This document shows, in pieces, positions 7,883 to 11,841 of a stretch of DNA of 64,000 bases. Positions within the stretch are counted from its first letter, which is position 1, and each line of letters begins with the position of its first letter. Location of the stretch: the NCBI GenBank assembly GCA_050701515.1, contig JBOGDB010000104.1; one strand, written 5' to 3'. A program made the position numbers and the translations under genes. The stretch comes from Mycobacterium sp. (lineage in GTDB: Bacteria; Actinomycetota; Actinomycetes; Mycobacteriales; Mycobacteriaceae). The notes under the pieces were generated by a model. It made no database searches. It was not told where the DNA came from and saw only the letters and a list, made by a program, of their open reading frames with translations.

Positions 7883-8758
7883 GTGAGCGTCCCCGCGCGC
7901 CCGGTACCGCTGTTCGCAGACATCGACGATGTGGCCCGACGGCTGTCCGAAACCGGCTATCTGCCCGACACCGCAACGGCCACCGCGGTGTTCCTCGCCG
8001 ACCGGCTGGGTAAGCCGCTGTTGGTGGAGGGCCCGGCCGGCGTCGGCAAGACCGAATTGGCCCGCGCGGTCGCGCAGGCCACCGGCTCGGGCCTGGTGCG
8101 GCTGCAGTGCTACGAGGGTGTCGACGAGGCCCGCGCGCTCTACGAGTGGAACCACGCCAAGCAGATCCTGCGGATCCAGGCCGGGTCCGGCGATTGGGAC
8201 CAAACCAAGACCGACGTCTTCTCCGAAGAGTTCCTGTTGTCGCGTCCGCTGCTGACCGCCATCCGCCGCAGCGAGCCCACCGTGCTGCTGGTCGACGAGA
8301 CCGACAAGGCCGACATCGAAATCGAGGGTCTGCTGCTCGAGGTGCTCAGCGATTTCGCGGTGACGGTCCCCGAGCTGGGCACCATCACCGCCGAGCGCGC
8401 GCCGTTCGTCCTGCTCACCTCCAACGCCACCCGCGAGCTGTCGGAGGCGCTCAAGCGGCGTTGCCTGTTCCTGCACATCGACTTCCCCGATCCCGACCTG
8501 GAGCGCCGCATCCTGCTGTCGCGGGTGCCCGAACTGCCCGAGCACCTGGCCGACGAACTGGTGCGCATCATCGGCGTGCTGCGCGGCATGCAGCTGAAGA
8601 AGCTGCCGTCGGTGGCCGAAACCATCGACTGGGGGCGCACCGTGCTGGCGCTCGGGCTGGACACCATCAGCGACGAGACCATCGCGGCCACCCTCGGGGT
8701 GGTGCTCAAGCACCAGTCCGATAATCAGCGTGCCAGCGGGGAGCTGAGGCTGAACTGA
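7883..8758 (+). CDS. MoxR-family AAA+ ATPase (Rv2426c-like)
   Basis: Walker A EGPAGVGKT, Walker B LLVDETDK, and ALKRRC. Confidence 0.9.
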   Translation: MSVPARPVPLFADIDDVARRLSETGYLPDTATATAVFLADRLGKPLLVEGPAGVGKTELARAVAQATGSGLVRLQCYEGVDEARALYEWNHAKQILRIQAGSGDWDQTKTDVFSEEFLLSRPLLTAIRRSEPTVLLVDETDKADIEIEGLLLEVLSDFAVTVPELGTITAERAPFVLLTSNATRELSEALKRRCLFLHIDFPDPDLERRILLSRVPELPEHLADELVRIIGVLRGMQLKKLPSVAETIDWGRTVLALGLDTISDETIAATLGVVLKHQSDNQRASGELRLN

Positions 8759-10200
8759 TGGCCGTCCGTCGCACCCGCCCGCCGCAACCACTGGCGCCAA
8801 ACGGCATCCCGGGGCACCTGGTGGAGTTCGTGGAAGCCCTGCGCGGGCAGGGGATTTCGGTGGGGCCATCGGAAACCGTCGACGCCGGCCGGGTAATGGC
8901 CACTCTGGGACTCGGCGACCGGGAGGTGCTGCGCGAGGGCATCGCGTGCGCGGTGCTGCGCCGCCCCGACCACCGCGACACCTACGACGCCATGTTCGAC
9001 CTGTGGTTCCCGGCCGCACTCGGATCGAAGACGGTGCTGGATGACGACGATGACAGCGGTGCGCCCGACGGTCTCCCGCCCGAGGACGTCGAGGCGATGC
9101 GGGCGGCGTTGCTCGACCTGTTGGCGGACAACCCCGACCTGGAGAACCTCGACGAGCGGCTGGCGGCGATGATCGCGCAGATTGTCGAGGCCTACGGCCG
9201 CTACAGCTCCAGCCGTGGCCCGTCGTACTCGTCGTATCAGGCGCTCAAGGCGATGGCCCTGGACGACCTCGAGGGACGGCTGCTGGCCGGGTTGCTGGCG
9301 CCCTACGGCGACGAACCCACACCGACCCAGGAGCAGATCGCCAAAGCAATTGCTGCGCAGCGTATCTCGCAACTGCGCAAGATGGTGGAAGCGGAGACCA
9401 AGCGCCGCACCGCCGAACAGCTGGGCCGCGACCATGTGCAGATGTACGGCATACCGCAGCTGGCCGAGAACGTCGAATTCCTGCGCGCGTCCGGTGACCA
9501 GCTTCGTCAGATGCGCCGAGTGGTTGCCCCGCTGGCGCGCACCCTGGCCACCCGGCTGGCCGCGCGTCGCCGCCGGTCCCGGGCCGGCGAGATCGACCTG
9601 CGCAAGACGCTGCGCAAGTCGATGTCGACCGGTGGCGTCCCGATCGACGTGGTGCTGAAGAAGCCGCACCCGGCCCGGCCCGAGCTGGTGGTGCTGTGCG
9701 ACGTCTCCGGCTCGGTGGCCGGCTTCAGCCACTTCACGCTGCTGCTGGTGCACGCGTTGCGGCAGCAGTTCTCCCGCGTTCGCGTCTTTGCGTTCATCGA
9801 CACCACCGACGAGGTCACCGAGCTGTTCGGCCCCGACGCCGACCTGGCCGTCGCGGTGCAGCGCATCACCCGCGAAGCGGGCGTGTACACCCGTGACGGC
9901 CACTCCGACTACGGCAACGCGTTCGTCTCGTTCCTGGACAAGTACCCGAACGTGCTGTCGCCGCGCAGCTCGCTGCTGGTGCTCGGCGACGGACGCAACA
10001 ATTACCGCAACCCGGAAACGGACCTGCTGGAGCACATGGTCACCGCGAGCCGGCACGCGCACTGGCTCAACCCGGAGCCCAGGCACCTGTGGGGCAGTGG
10101 CGACTCGGCGGTGCCGCGCTATCAGGACGTGATCACCATGCACGAATGCCGGTCGGCCAAGCAGCTGGCGGTGGTGATCGACCAGCTTTTGCCCGTCTAG
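8758..10200 (+). CDS. vWA (CoxE-like) domain protein (Rv2425c-like)
   Basis: MIDAS-like CDVSGS, LGDGRNN and WLNPEP; translationally coupled to the MoxR gene. Confidence 0.9.
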   Translation: MAVRRTRPPQPLAPNGIPGHLVEFVEALRGQGISVGPSETVDAGRVMATLGLGDREVLREGIACAVLRRPDHRDTYDAMFDLWFPAALGSKTVLDDDDDSGAPDGLPPEDVEAMRAALLDLLADNPDLENLDERLAAMIAQIVEAYGRYSSSRGPSYSSYQALKAMALDDLEGRLLAGLLAPYGDEPTPTQEQIAKAIAAQRISQLRKMVEAETKRRTAEQLGRDHVQMYGIPQLAENVEFLRASGDQLRQMRRVVAPLARTLATRLAARRRRSRAGEIDLRKTLRKSMSTGGVPIDVVLKKPHPARPELVVLCDVSGSVAGFSHFTLLLVHALRQQFSRVRVFAFIDTTDEVTELFGPDADLAVAVQRITREAGVYTRDGHSDYGNAFVSFLDKYPNVLSPRSSLLVLGDGRNNYRNPETDLLEHMVTASRHAHWLNPEPRHLWGSGDSAVPRYQDVITMHECRSAKQLAVVIDQLLPV

Positions 10201-10215
10201 GTAACCGCCGGCCCT
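10180..10215 (+). repeat. 36-bp direct repeat, copy 1 (vWA gene 3' end plus 15 nt)
   Basis: gaccagcttttgcccgtctaggtaaccgccggccct is 35/36 identical to 11146-11181. Confidence 0.95.
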
Positions 10216-10226
10216 TCGCCCGGCTC

Positions 10227-11131
10227 ACTGTGCGGTTTCGTACGGGACATGCCGTGACGGCGTACGAATCGGCACGGTCGCGACGGTGTCAGCACCGATC
10301 TATCCCGGGGTGTACGTACCGCGAGGCGTTGACCTCTCGGCAGTCCAACGATCTCGGGCCGCATGGTTGTGGTCTCGCCGACGAGGCGTCGTCGCCGGGT
10401 TGTCTGCAGCCGCGCTGTTGGGCGCGAAATGGATCGAGCCGGGACTACCCGCCGAGCTTGTCCACGAAAACAGGCGTGCACCACCGATGATGATCATTCA
10501 TACCGACGAGCTCGCGACCGGCGACACACAGTTGCTCAACGCCGCGAAGGTGACGACGGCTGCCCGCACCGCTTTCGATATCGGCAGGCGCCTCGCGCTC
10601 GAACCCGCTGTTCAGCGCATCGACGCCCTGATGAACGCGACCGACGTCAAGGTCGGCGACGTCGAGGCGGTGGCCGAACTACACCCCGGCGTGCGCGGCC
10701 TACGGCAGCTGCATCGGACAATGCCGTTGGTCGACGGTGGCGCCGAGTCACCCTACGAATCGCTGACGCGTCTGTTGTTGATCCGGGCCGGCTTTCCGGC
10801 GCCGCAGACCCAGATTCCTGTCCTTGACGAGTACGGAGTTGTCATCGCCCGCATCGACATGGGATGGCCCGAATTCCTCGTCGGTGTCGACTTCGAGGGT
10901 GCGCATCACTGGACCGATCCAAAACAGCGGACCTGGGACGTCGAGCGATACACGCGATTACCTGAGCTCGGTTGGCAGGACATCAGGGTGACGAGCGGCA
11001 TGCTGTACAGAAGTCCGAGCGTCATAGTCAGCCGCGTCGGCGCGGCCCTCATCGCGCGCGGGTGCCCCAAGACGTGGTGAGTGTGCGGATTTGTACACAC
11101 CAACGGCGTGTTGCGTACGAAACCGCACAGT
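10227..11131. mobile_element. Candidate mini mobile element: DUF559-like nuclease gene between REP-like hairpins with perfect 18-bp terminal inverted repeats
   Basis: actgtgcggtttcgtacg (10227-10244) is the exact reverse complement of cgtacgaaaccgcacagt (11114-11131). Each end also pairs with a degenerate inner arm (10261-10278, 11080-11097). The unit is flanked by 36-bp direct repeats. Confidence 0.6.
10286..11080 (+). CDS. AbiEi-antitoxin-like / DUF559 (Vsr-like PD-(D/E)XK) protein, possibly N-terminally truncated
   Basis: Motifs AWLWSRRRGVVAGLSAAALLGAKW, TTAARTAFD, ESPYES and RIDMGW...VDFEG. Confidence 0.75.
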   Translation: MSAPIYPGVYVPRGVDLSAVQRSRAAWLWSRRRGVVAGLSAAALLGAKWIEPGLPAELVHENRRAPPMMIIHTDELATGDTQLLNAAKVTTAARTAFDIGRRLALEPAVQRIDALMNATDVKVGDVEAVAELHPGVRGLRQLHRTMPLVDGGAESPYESLTRLLLIRAGFPAPQTQIPVLDEYGVVIARIDMGWPEFLVGVDFEGAHHWTDPKQRTWDVERYTRLPELGWQDIRVTSGMLYRSPSVIVSRVGAALIARGCPKTW

Positions 11132-11145
11132 CGACGGACACGGTT

Positions 11146-11181
11146 GACCAGCTGTTGCCCGTCTAGGTAACCGCCGGCCCT
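11146..11181 (+). repeat. 36-bp direct repeat, copy 2
   Basis: gaccagctgttgcccgtctaggtaaccgccggccct still reads DQLLPV-stop. Confidence 0.95.
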
Positions 11182-11199
11182 CCCGTAAGCTGCCTAAAC

Positions 11200-11841
11200 G
11201 TGGCTAATCGACGCAGGCTGGGTGTGATGGGCGGGACGTTTGATCCCATCCACAACGGCCACCTGGTCGCCGCCAGCGAGGTGGCCGATCTGTTCGGTCT
11301 CGACGAAGTGGTGTTCGTGCCGACCGGTCAGCCGTGGCAGAAACACCATCGCGATGTCACCGCCGCCGAAGACCACTATCTGATGACGGTGATCGCCACC
11401 GCCGCCAATCCCCGGTTCTCGGTCAGCCGGGTCGACATCGACCGCGGCGGGCCCACCTACACCAAGGACACGCTGGGCGATCTGCAAGCGCTCAACCCGG
11501 ACGCCGACCTGTACTTCATCACCGGTGCCGACGCGTTGGCGACGATCCTGTCGTGGCAGAACTGGGAGGACATGTTCGCCACGGCCCGGTTCGTCGCGGT
11601 GAGCCGGCCCGGCTACGAGCTGGACGGAAAGCACATCGAGAAGGCGCTCAAGGAGCTGCCCGAGGGCGCGCTCACGCTGGTCGAGGTGCCTGCCCTGGCG
11701 ATCTCCTCGAGTGACTGCCGCAAGCGCGCCGAGGAGAACCGTCCGATCTGGTACCTGGTGCCCGACGGCGTGGTGCAGTACGTGTCCAAGCGCGGCCTGT
11801 ACCGTAGCCCCGCCCTGGCGATGCAGGACCAGCAGCGATGA
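11200..11841 (+). CDS. nadD: Nicotinate-nucleotide adenylyltransferase
   Basis: [11 protein letters not shown] and ISSS motifs. Probably leaderless (TAAGCT upstream of GTG). Confidence 0.95.

What the first reader, a model, noticed from the sequence alone, without database searches (positions are those of the whole stretch)
10227..11131. Four-arm REP-like architecture with perfect 18-bp terminal inverted repeats
Seen: the outer arms are exact reverse complements (actgtgcggtttcgtacg). The inner arms are degenerate (15/18 and 14/18), so each end can fold as a local hairpin or the two ends can pair with each other. Known: REP hairpins flanking an HUH transposase define REPtrons. Inference: this could be an analogous REP-associated system built on a PD-(D/E)XK nuclease.
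Basis: partly seen in the sequence, partly recalled or inferred. Interest (0 to 1): 0.7.

Follow-up and report, generated by a model that had tools for sequence, protein, structure and literature searches.

The report
Hairpin-bounded nuclease gene cassette in Mycobacterium
A 930-bp cassette (a DNA-binding nuclease gene, now 5'-truncated, between two inverted copies of a 57-nt hairpin repeat) has inserted between two housekeeping genes. The same gene-plus-matching-hairpin layout recurs across mycobacteria, like the REP/RAYT repeat-and-enzyme partnership but with an unrelated enzyme.

Summary
The outer 18-mers (10227-10244 and 11114-11131) are exact reverse complements, and the inner arms match 15/18 and 14/18. 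They form two inverted copies of a 57-nt hairpin around ORF 10286-11080.

The ORF encodes an AbiEi-like DNA-binding module fused to a Vsr/DUF559-like nuclease. A 110-bp deletion has removed its start codon and about 29 codons.

The 930-bp insert sits between a VWA_CoxE gene and nadD. A 36-bp duplication of the VWA gene's 3' end flanks it. None of 24 related species has the cassette there.

The genome holds 18 paralogues. Many are flanked by their own, different hairpins, and the two largest hairpin families (16 and 14 copies) each frame one paralogue. Across Mycobacteriaceae, 33 of 48 intact loci have matching flanks. Protein and hairpin similarity co-vary.

The window-type hairpin occurs in 76 of 81 genus genomes. 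One genome has about 25 solo copies beside a single cognate gene.

The REPtron analogy is therefore supported as architecture. It is not a RAYT system. No nuclease activity on the hairpins is shown, and several genomes keep hairpins without the gene. I found no published description. Earlier notes from this scan report the same layout in other Actinobacteria.

The parts
8758..10200 (+). Upstream host gene, VWA_CoxE family. Its last 7 codons plus stop form the first 21 nt of the duplicated 36-mer.
   Evidence: Pfam PF05762, 201 bits; ORF list.
10180..10215 (.). Direct repeat copy 1 (36 bp): GACCAGCTTTTGCCCGTCTAGGTAACCGCCGGCCCT.
   Evidence: Repeat family D1. It occurs only twice in the genome. 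The single difference from copy 2, CTT against CTG, is a synonymous Leu codon (read).
10216..11145 (+). The 930-bp insert: spacer, hairpin, truncated gene, hairpin, spacer.
   Evidence: No DNA match to the cassette lies at the VWA|nadD junction in any of 24 same-genus species. No family protein is encoded in the 20 junctions fetched. Copy 2 plus the downstream sequence reads like an intact empty site when compared with L027.
10225..10280 (-). Upstream hairpin, one copy of the 57-nt repeat, oriented on the minus strand. Outer arm 10227-10244, loop 10245-10260, inner arm 10261-10278.
   Evidence: Pair I5. Covariance model R1 hit, 60.9 bits (contig position C104:13211-13266).
10276..10292 (+). 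Remnant of the conserved leader (GTCGCGACGGTGTCAG). The deletion junction lies between 10292 and 10293. 110 bp present in the orthologues are missing: the rest of the leader, the ATG and about 29 codons.
   Evidence: Pairwise alignments to L047, L049 and L052. Full-length relatives are 290-291 aa.
10286..11080 (+). ORF of 264 aa with a GTG start created at the deletion junction. It encodes an AbiEi-like DNA-binding module, N-terminally truncated, plus a Vsr/DUF559-like PD-(D/E)XK nuclease domain.
   Evidence: ORF list. Pfam hits, all sub-threshold. The conserved D, (E/D)x(D/E)G, H and R positions are retained. Model pLDDT 93. Fold matches: Rv2827c at probability 0.99 and I-Bth0305I catalytic domain at probability 1.0.
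11078..11133 (+). Downstream hairpin, second copy of the 57-nt repeat. Its first three bases are the TGA stop of the ORF. Inner arm 11080-11097, loop 11098-11113, outer arm 11114-11131.
   Evidence: Covariance model R1 hit, 70.1 bits (C104:14064-14119). Arm mismatches.
11146..11181 (.). Direct repeat copy 2 (36 bp, 35/36 identical to copy 1). It is followed by the conserved CCGTAAGCTG motif upstream of nadD.
   Evidence: Repeat family D1. Comparison with empty sites in relatives.
11200..11841 (+). Downstream host gene, nadD-like cytidylyltransferase.
   Evidence: Pfam PF01467, 93 bits.

Best explanation
The four arms are the two ends of a roughly 1-kb cassette that is widespread in Mycobacteriaceae. 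The intact cassette reads: 57-nt hairpin, ~40-nt leader, ~290-aa gene, 57-nt hairpin in inverted orientation.

**The gene.** It encodes an AbiEi/Rv2827c-like winged-helix DNA-binding module fused to a Vsr/DUF559-like PD-(D/E)XK nuclease.

**The hairpin.** The most conserved part of each hairpin is a ~30-nt block at the very end of the cassette: the loop motif CGGCGTGTYG plus the outer arm CGTACGAAACCGCACAGTCG. Identical-type solo hairpins are scattered in intergenic DNA. Each protein subfamily carries its own hairpin variant.

**The window copy.** It inserted between the VWA_CoxE gene and nadD with a 36-bp duplication of the target. It later lost 110 bp, including its start codon and part of the DNA-binding module, so it is probably crippled.

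**Shown:** the anatomy, the insertion, the family-wide gene-hairpin pairing, the dispersed solo copies and the protein fold.

**Inferred mechanism:** the winged-helix module reads the conserved 30-nt block. The nuclease nicks or cuts at the hairpin, either as an extruded cruciform or as single-stranded DNA at a fork. Recombinational repair templated by another hairpin-bearing locus then copies hairpins, and sometimes the gene between them, into new or existing hairpin sites. This would be a REP/RAYT-like partnership run by a homing-type nuclease rather than an HUH transposase.
For: **Anatomy and insertion**
- Repeats and ORF.
- The cassette is absent from the VWA|nadD junction in 24 same-genus species.
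- The cassette has clean edges at a second site. glpR|rimJ is empty in the own genome (C106:2961|2962) and holds a 1070-bp insert in L047.

**The same hairpins travel with the gene**
- Orthologues at 78-80% identity in a different context (glpR|rimJ) carry the same upstream and downstream hairpins.
- 35 window-family loci lie in 13 different flank contexts.

**Family-wide pairing**
- The own genome has 18 paralogues. Their flanks carry cognate hairpins.
- 7 of 18 have a strict hairpin within 200 bp (P = 4e-8).
- The two biggest hairpin families (16 and 14 members) each frame a paralogue, at C136 and C153.
- 33 of 48 intact loci from Mycobacterium, Mycolicibacterium, Mycolicibacter and Mycobacteroides exceed the 99th percentile of 600 control genes for flank similarity.
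- Protein identity and downstream-hairpin similarity correlate (Spearman 0.47; Mantel 0 of 999 permutations).

**Dispersal**
- Covariance model R1 hits 76 of 81 genus genomes.
- G044 has one gene plus about 25 solo copies with unrelated flanks.
- Genomes with the gene have a median of 19.5 hits against 8 without (Mann-Whitney P = 2e-5, uncorrected for phylogeny).

**Protein**
- Model pLDDT 93.
- Fold matches: Rv2827c/AbiEi for the N-terminal ~210 aa; I-Bth0305I homing endonuclease, PvuRts1I/AbaSI and NGO0050 (DUF559) for the C-terminus.
- Catalytic-type residues are invariant.
Against: - No biochemical or read-level evidence of cutting, excision or transposition was obtained.
- No near-identical cassette pairs occur within a genome. 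The closest own paralogue is 71% identical, so no recent burst is visible.
- The gene and the repeat do not strictly co-occur. G002, G063, G082 and G098 hold 4-6 high-scoring hairpins but no flanked cognate gene.
- The long target duplication is unique to this copy among 19 loci tested. No solid target duplication is seen for solo hairpins.
- PD-(D/E)XK nucleases cannot religate, so any mobility must lean on host repair.
- Covariation in the stem is modest: 80% of cells pair and the central stem is often mispaired.
- The window copy lacks part of its DNA-binding domain.
Confidence: 0.6

Rival explanations
1. The gene is a free-standing homing-type selfish nuclease that targets pre-existing hairpins. 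On this view the hairpins are host elements, for example I-shaped terminators or REPs, that arose and spread by other means. The gene merely lands in or beside the hairpin variant its protein recognises, as some IS elements target REPs.
For: - The nuclease domain's best structural match is a homing endonuclease (I-Bth0305I).
- The same VWA 3' intergenic region was hit independently by a member 60% identical in M. kyogaense (L075).
- Hairpins persist in genomes without the gene.
- Orthologous intergenic sites carry hairpins of different families in different species.
- Solo hairpins often sit just after stop codons.
- REP-targeting IS elements, including IS1558 in M. tuberculosis, are documented (PMC1525189).
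Against: - Both ends of the cassette are complete hairpins, not halves of one split hairpin.
- The degenerate inner arms are conserved between orthologous cassettes in different sites, so they belong to the cassette.
- Every solo hairpin shows the same asymmetric conservation as a cassette end.
- The two most abundant hairpin families each have exactly one framed gene.
Confidence: 0.25
2. The hairpins are cis-regulatory sites of a chromosomal repressor-nuclease. The upstream hairpin would be the operator of an AbiEi-like autorepressor. The downstream one would be a terminator. Solo copies would be relics of decayed cassettes, analogous to solo LTRs, or extra regulon sites. No repeat mobilisation would be involved.
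For: - The N-terminal two-thirds resemble Rv2827c/AbiEi (weak Pfam AbiEi_1 and AbiEi_4 hits). From general knowledge, AbiEi antitoxins autoregulate by binding inverted repeats in their promoters.
- The upstream hairpin ends about 40 nt before the ATG, and the downstream hairpin starts at the stop codon.
- The solo hairpins' variable 5' arm fits a deletion scar formed between an outer arm and a degenerate inner arm.
Against: - A conserved nuclease domain is not needed for autoregulation.
- There is no AbiEii toxin partner next to the gene.
- About 25 solo copies per single gene, in unrelated intergenic sites, would require as many past cassette insertions.
- Presence or absence of whole cassettes with clean edges shows mobility of some kind.
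Confidence: 0.1
3. The inverted hairpins are the crossover sites of a programmed inversion that flips the nuclease gene.
For: The ends are inverted repeats (59 nt at 76%, with 18 nt exact). 'DUF559 domain-containing protein' is 14-fold enriched among predicted programmed-inversion targets in a published survey (PMC9881135).
Against: No recombinase gene is adjacent. Inversion would not change the coding sequence. In other subfamilies the two hairpins are direct, not inverted. No read evidence was obtainable.
Confidence: 0.03
4. Chance similarity or an assembly artefact.
For: The assembly is fragmented into 334 contigs.
Against: The 18-mer exceeds all 300 shuffles. The same architecture is present in dozens of independent assemblies. 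The contig is 75.9 kb, and the 36-bp copies differ at one base.
Confidence: 0.01

Closest known systems
REP/REPIN-RAYT systems ('REPtrons') of Proteobacteria (PMC3116915, PMC3337134)
   Same: A usually single-copy gene is framed by inverted copies of a short palindromic repeat. That repeat is also scattered in many extragenic copies. Enzyme subfamily and repeat variant go together. Inheritance is long-lived and largely vertical.
   Different: The enzyme is an AbiEi-like winged-helix module plus a Vsr/DUF559-like PD-(D/E)XK nuclease, not an HUH/Y1 transposase. The hairpin head is (C/T)GA(G/C)TGTG, not GTAG. Solo units are single 57-nt hairpins rather than REPIN doublets. The gene has many paralogues per genome (18 here), each with its own hairpin type. 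No mobilising activity has been shown.
I-Bth0305I, a Vsr-like (EDxHD) homing endonuclease (PDB 3r3p)
   Same: The catalytic-domain fold matches (probability 1.0, TM 0.72 normalised to the target). Both are selfish-gene-like and show insertion polymorphism.
   Different: I-Bth0305I is intron-encoded in a phage recA gene. It has a different DNA-binding part and no flanking hairpin repeats.
AbiEi antitoxin / M. tuberculosis Rv2827c (PDB 1zel), type IV toxin-antitoxin
   Same: The N-terminal ~210 residues share the fold (probability 0.99). A palindromic site lies just upstream of the gene.
   Different: There is no AbiEii nucleotidyltransferase partner. A C-terminal nuclease domain has been added. 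The palindromic site is repeated downstream of the gene and elsewhere in the genome.
BoxC / PIT / TM(ECO) G/C-rich repeats (PMC4666352). Earlier notes of this scan pair them with small YcjD-type DUF559 genes.
   Same: Short intergenic palindromic repeats of unknown origin which, according to unverified scan notes, bracket DUF559-type nuclease genes.
   Different: The TMECO consensus CCCTCNCCC...GGGNGAGGG...GGGNGAGGG is absent from this genome and from all the hairpins aligned here. The protein here is about 290 aa with an AbiEi-like module, not a ~120-aa stand-alone DUF559.
REPs of M. tuberculosis and REP-targeting IS elements (Tobes and Pareja 2006, PMC1525189)
   Same: Mycobacterial REP sequences are on record: 64 in strain CDC1551, one of them hit by IS1558.
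   Different: That work does not link the REPs to any nuclease gene. I could not compare sequences, because the paper gives none.

Membership tests
REPtron (REP + RAYT) | The gene encodes an HUH/Y1 (IS200/IS605-like) tyrosine transposase. | tested here: not met
   Pfam gives only sub-threshold REase_MTES_1575, DUF559 and AbiEi hits. The fold matches Rv2827c plus Vsr-like nucleases.
REPtron (REP + RAYT) | The gene is flanked by inverted copies of a palindromic repeat. | tested here: met
   The same holds in orthologues at other sites.
REPtron (REP + RAYT) | The same repeat is dispersed in many extragenic copies. | tested here: met
   The own genome has 3 solo copies, one of them cut by a contig end. 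G044 has about 25, and 76 of 81 genus genomes have hits. The own-genome population is small.
REPtron (REP + RAYT) | The repeat population depends on the presence of the gene. | tested here: inconclusive
   All 12 gene-bearing genomes have at least 15 hits, with median 19.5 against 8 (P = 2e-5). However, G002, G063, G082 and G098 keep 4-6 strong hairpins without a flanked gene. There was no phylogenetic correction.
REPtron (REP + RAYT) | A conserved GTAG (or CGTC) tetranucleotide at the REP 5' end. | tested here: not met
   Alignment A2: the hairpin head is (C/T)GA(G/C)TGTGC.
Vsr / DUF559 PD-(D/E)XK nucleases | Vsr-like fold of the catalytic domain. | tested here: met
   Fold search: 3r3p at probability 1.0, 3hrl at 0.93, and 4oq2/4par, on a model with pLDDT 93.
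Vsr / DUF559 PD-(D/E)XK nucleases | Conserved acidic and histidine catalytic positions: D ... (E/D)x(D/E)G ... H. | tested here: met
   D218, G232, H235 and R248 are invariant across 34 sequences. The window copy reads IDMGW ... VDFEGAHH.
Vsr / DUF559 PD-(D/E)XK nucleases | Score above the Pfam gathering threshold. | tested here: not met
   The window protein scores 28 bits on PF18741 (cut-off 38.2) and has no PF04480 hit. Six own paralogues do pass PF04480.
AbiE type IV toxin-antitoxin (AbiEi antitoxin) | Winged-helix plus AbiEi C-terminal domain fold. | tested here: met
   1zel (Rv2827c) at probability 0.99 for the full-length orthologue P0004. The window copy lacks the first ~29 residues.
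AbiE type IV toxin-antitoxin (AbiEi antitoxin) | An adjacent AbiEii nucleotidyltransferase toxin gene. | tested here: not met
   The neighbours are VWA_CoxE and nadD. In the orthologues they are glpR and an acetyltransferase.
Classical IS / MITE | Terminal inverted repeats plus a recognised transposase (DDE, serine, tyrosine or HUH). | tested here: not met
   Terminal inverted repeats are present, but there is no transposase domain.
Classical IS / MITE | A target-site duplication of constant length at each copy. | tested here: not met
   36 bp in the window only. The 18 other loci give at most 9-12 nt, imperfect and at varying distances from the ends.
BoxC / PIT / TM repeat family | The three-block G/C-rich triplex motif CCCTCNCCC N3-6 GGGNGAGGG N3 GGGNGAGGG. 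| tested here: not met
   Zero hits in the genome, even with a two-block pattern, and none in the aligned hairpins.

The most novel reading that the evidence does not exclude
The REP-like hairpin families of Mycobacteriaceae, and by the scan's notes of many Actinobacteria, would be created, moved and homogenised by their cognate AbiEi-Vsr nucleases. This would be a second repeat-and-enzyme partnership, independent of HUH enzymes. The nuclease would make staggered cuts around its site and host repair would do the copying. The 36-bp duplication seen here would be the footprint of such a staggered cut.
Probability: 0.3. Interest if true: 0.85.

Novelty: new variant of a known kind. Interest (0 to 1): 0.68.

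Why it matters
- **An enzyme candidate for orphan repeats.** REP-like palindromes are abundant in mycobacterial intergenic DNA, but no enzyme has been tied to them. This family offers a concrete, testable candidate.
- **A second route to a repeat-and-enzyme partnership.** If the partnership is real, such systems have evolved more than once, here on a nuclease that cannot religate DNA. That would imply a mechanism dependent on host repair.
- **A functional lead for a large protein family.** More than 3500 'hypothetical/DUF559' proteins would gain one.
- **Explanations for genome features.** It could account for some assembly breaks, variable intergenic hot spots and stop codons donated by repeats.
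- **What this window adds.** It provides a comparatively fresh insertion with intact edges and empty-site comparators.

Tried and rejected
- **Known RNA family:** Rfam gives nothing for the hairpins.
- **BoxC/TM repeat:** the motif is absent.
- **Strand-specific RNA or ssDNA hairpin:** G-T wobble is not biased to one strand (5% against 7%). Covariation is only modest.
- **My early reading that the two hairpins are direct repeats:** corrected. In the window family they are inverted, judged by their loops.
- **Long target duplication as a family signature:** not found in 18 other loci.
- **The ~1-1.4-kb inserts at VWA|nadD in seven relatives as diverged cassettes:** no protein similarity.
- **Counting solo copies per hairpin family by blastn-short:** too strict to be useful, because the loops differ.
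- **NCBIfam:** no family matched.
- **Literature:** searches for DUF559 with AbiEi, for REP-associated with Actinobacteria, for RAYT or REPIN with Mycobacterium, and for the hairpin sequences themselves gave no description.
- **Stringent cognate-gene threshold (E <= 1e-100):** it misclassifies at least G052 and G015, which have flanked genes at 60% and 55% identity. This makes the co-occurrence test approximate.
Full report
**1. The observation**

The window lies in contig C104 of a 4.42-Mb, 334-contig assembly that is 93% complete. Its relatives are named Mycobacterium or Mycolicibacterium.

- The outer 18-mers 10227-10244 and 11114-11131 are exact reverse complements.
- The inner arms pair 15/18 (10261-10278) and 14/18 (11080-11097) with them.
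- The inverted repeat extends to 59 nt at 76%.
- An exact 18-nt inverted repeat was never reached in 300 shuffles of the stretch (maximum 16).

So there are two ~52-57-nt hairpins, one at each end of ORF 10286-11080.

**2. What surrounds it**

A 36-bp direct repeat, matching at 35 of 36 positions, brackets the whole unit at 10180-10215 and 11146-11181. It occurs nowhere else in the genome. It consists of the last seven codons and the stop of the upstream VWA_CoxE gene plus 15 nt. The one difference is a synonymous Leu codon.

In 24 other species of the genus, the VWA-to-nadD gap ranges from 11 bp to 6.6 kb. None has a DNA match to this cassette there. In the 20 junctions I fetched, none encodes a family protein. 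The second repeat copy plus the sequence downstream of it reads like an intact empty site.

The 930 bp at 10216-11145 are therefore an insertion accompanied by a 36-bp target duplication.

**3. The gene**

Pfam gives only sub-threshold hits: REase_MTES_1575 and DUF559 at the C-terminus, AbiEi_1 and AbiEi_4 at the N-terminus. NCBIfam gives nothing.

More than 3500 homologues exist. They are named 'hypothetical' or 'DUF559 domain-containing' and are typically 290-291 aa. The best non-self match is 80% identical.

An AlphaFold model of the closest full-length orthologue has pLDDT 93 and pTM 0.88. By fold search:
- The N-terminal ~210 residues match M. tuberculosis Rv2827c, an AbiEi antitoxin homologue (probability 0.99).
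- The C-terminus matches the catalytic domain of the Vsr-like homing endonuclease I-Bth0305I (probability 1.0), the PvuRts1I/AbaSI nuclease domains, and the DUF559 protein NGO0050.

The conserved D, (E/D)x(D/E)G, H and R positions are invariant in 34 sequences and are kept in the window copy.

Compared with orthologues, the window copy has a clean 110-bp deletion. It runs from just after the conserved leader motif GGTGTCAG (junction 10292|10293) to codon ~30. It removes the native ATG and much of the first helices of the DNA-binding module. The present GTG start is a by-product of the junction. The copy is probably crippled, although the remaining 264 codons are open.

**4. The hairpins belong to the gene**

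The nearest orthologues (78-80% identity) sit in another context, between glpR and rimJ-moeA. They carry the same hairpins: one ends ~40 nt before the ATG, and one begins at the TGA stop.

That site is empty in the own genome (C106:2961|2962), against a 1070-bp insert in L047.

Thirty-five loci of this subfamily fall in 13 different flank contexts. In M. kyogaense, a member 60% identical lies 5 nt after the stop of the same VWA gene, without any duplication. This is an independent hit in the same intergenic region.

Aligned and oriented by their asymmetric loops, 42 hairpins show a constant pattern:
- The loop's 3' part plus the 3' arm (CGGCGTGTYG-CGTACGAAACCGCACAxTCG) is highly conserved.
- The 5' arm is variable, especially at positions 10-15.

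In a cassette the conserved block is outermost at both ends. Pairing holds in 80% of cells, with a few covarying pairs. Rfam has no match.

**5. A family-wide rule**

The own genome has 18 paralogues at 28-71% identity. Most have a strong hairpin right after the stop and often a similar one upstream, but with different stems for different paralogues.

A de novo scan found 200 strict hairpins in the genome. Seven of the 18 genes have one within 200 bp, where 2% is expected (P = 4e-8). The two largest hairpin families, with 16 and 14 members, each frame one paralogue: C136, a bona fide DUF559, and C153.

Similarity between a gene's upstream and downstream flanks exceeds the 99th percentile of 600 control genes for 33 of 48 intact loci from four genera of Mycobacteriaceae.

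Protein identity and downstream-hairpin similarity co-vary (Spearman 0.47; Mantel 0 of 999). One caveat applies: orthologous loci share descent, which inflates this figure.

Different hairpin families still share the outer CGAGCGTG...CACGCTCG and often the loop motif.

**6. Dispersed solo copies**

A covariance model of the window-type hairpin hits 76 of 81 genus genomes, with 0-58 hits each. Palindromes are often counted on both strands.

It has one cognate gene downstream of groEL2, framed by two hairpins. It also has about 25 solo 57-nt hairpins with unrelated flanks. Some of these donate the TGA stop of the upstream gene, for example carA.

The own genome has only seven window-type copies. 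Four of them frame the two cognate genes, and one is cut by a contig end.

Genomes with a cognate gene all have at least 15 hits, with a median of 19.5 against 8 (P = 2e-5, uncorrected). The link is not strict, however:
- G052 and G015 turned out to have flanked genes at 60% and 55% identity, which my threshold missed.
- G002, G063, G082 and G098 keep 4-6 high-scoring hairpins with no flanked gene.

I compared nine G044 solo sites with their orthologous sites in the own genome. Four are empty. Three hold a hairpin of a different family. Two hold ~1.1-kb inserts that are not among the 18 paralogues.

**7. Interpretation**

*Shown:* a ~1-kb cassette bounded by hairpins. It shows presence/absence polymorphism, carries cognate hairpin variants, has dispersed solo copies, and encodes a protein built of a DNA-binding module and a Vsr-like nuclease.

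*Inferred:* the protein reads the conserved 30-nt block and nicks or cuts at the hairpin, and host repair spreads hairpins and cassette.

*Rivals:*
- A homing-type gene that merely targets host hairpins.
- An autoregulated repressor-nuclease whose solo sites are relics.
- An inversion switch. DUF559 genes are 14-fold enriched among predicted inversion targets in PMC9881135.

The 36-bp duplication is unique among 19 loci tested and remains unexplained. A staggered double cut is the simplest reading.

**8. Comparison with what is known**

The layout parallels REP/RAYT REPtrons, but the enzyme, the repeat head and the paralogue number differ. It fails the defining RAYT feature.

It is not the BoxC/TM repeat family. 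Mycobacterial REPs are on record, but without an associated gene.

I found no paper describing this pairing. Subscription journals were not searchable.

Earlier notes from this scan report the same AbiEi-DUF559-plus-palindrome layout in at least 25 other actinobacterial genomes. One check there found that the repeat does not strictly go with the gene. My results agree on both counts.

**9. Verdict**

The mechanism is untested. This is a new variant of a known kind.

Noticed in passing
window 10200-11200, compared with loci L027-L046: The VWA_CoxE-to-nadD intergenic region is a hot spot across the genus. The gap ranges from 11 bp to 6.6 kb in 24 species. Several gaps contain other palindromic repeats, for example GTGACGCCAGCGTCAC tandem units and GTGCCCGCCTC...GAGGCGGGCAC hairpins. 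A conserved CCGTAAGCTG motif precedes nadD.
   Followed up: partly
own genome C136:12609-13599 (outside the window): The most abundant hairpin family of the genome (GCGATTTCGGCGTGAT..., 16 strict copies) frames a distant 18th paralogue. That paralogue is a bona fide DUF559 by Pfam (44 bits).
   Followed up: partly
own genome C153:2300-3204 and C1:76633-77723: Two distant paralogues (28-30% identity) are framed by hairpins of the family GAGCAGACGCAAAAGCCCC (14 strict copies) and of a GCGAGCGTGCGTGT type. Their loops carry the same CGGCGTGTCG motif as the window hairpin.
   Followed up: partly
L122 (G044), L024 (G002) and own genome C5:14241-14395: The carA|carB intergenic site holds a window-type hairpin in two species; the hairpin's TGA serves as the carA stop codon. 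In the own genome the same site holds two hairpins of a different family. This suggests site reuse or conversion between hairpin families.
   Followed up: partly
own genome C130:4167-4204: A contig ends inside a window-type hairpin (21 nt identical to the window's right end). These repeats may contribute to assembly breaks. Many homologues in public metagenomes also sit on ~1.0-1.4-kb contigs.
   Followed up: no
L065:1762-2856: This locus has very long inverted similarity between its flanks (local alignment score 142.5). This suggests a large palindromic duplication around the gene.
   Followed up: no
L125 (G044) against own genome C83:14022-14026: One solo hairpin is flanked by an imperfect ~10-nt direct repeat (TTACCCGTCG and TTACCGTCG) where the own genome has an empty site. 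This may be a short target duplication. It was not seen at the other solo sites.
   Followed up: partly
own genome C281:4834-4891: A third window-type hairpin lies ~600 bp beyond the upstream hairpin of the C281 paralogue.
   Followed up: no
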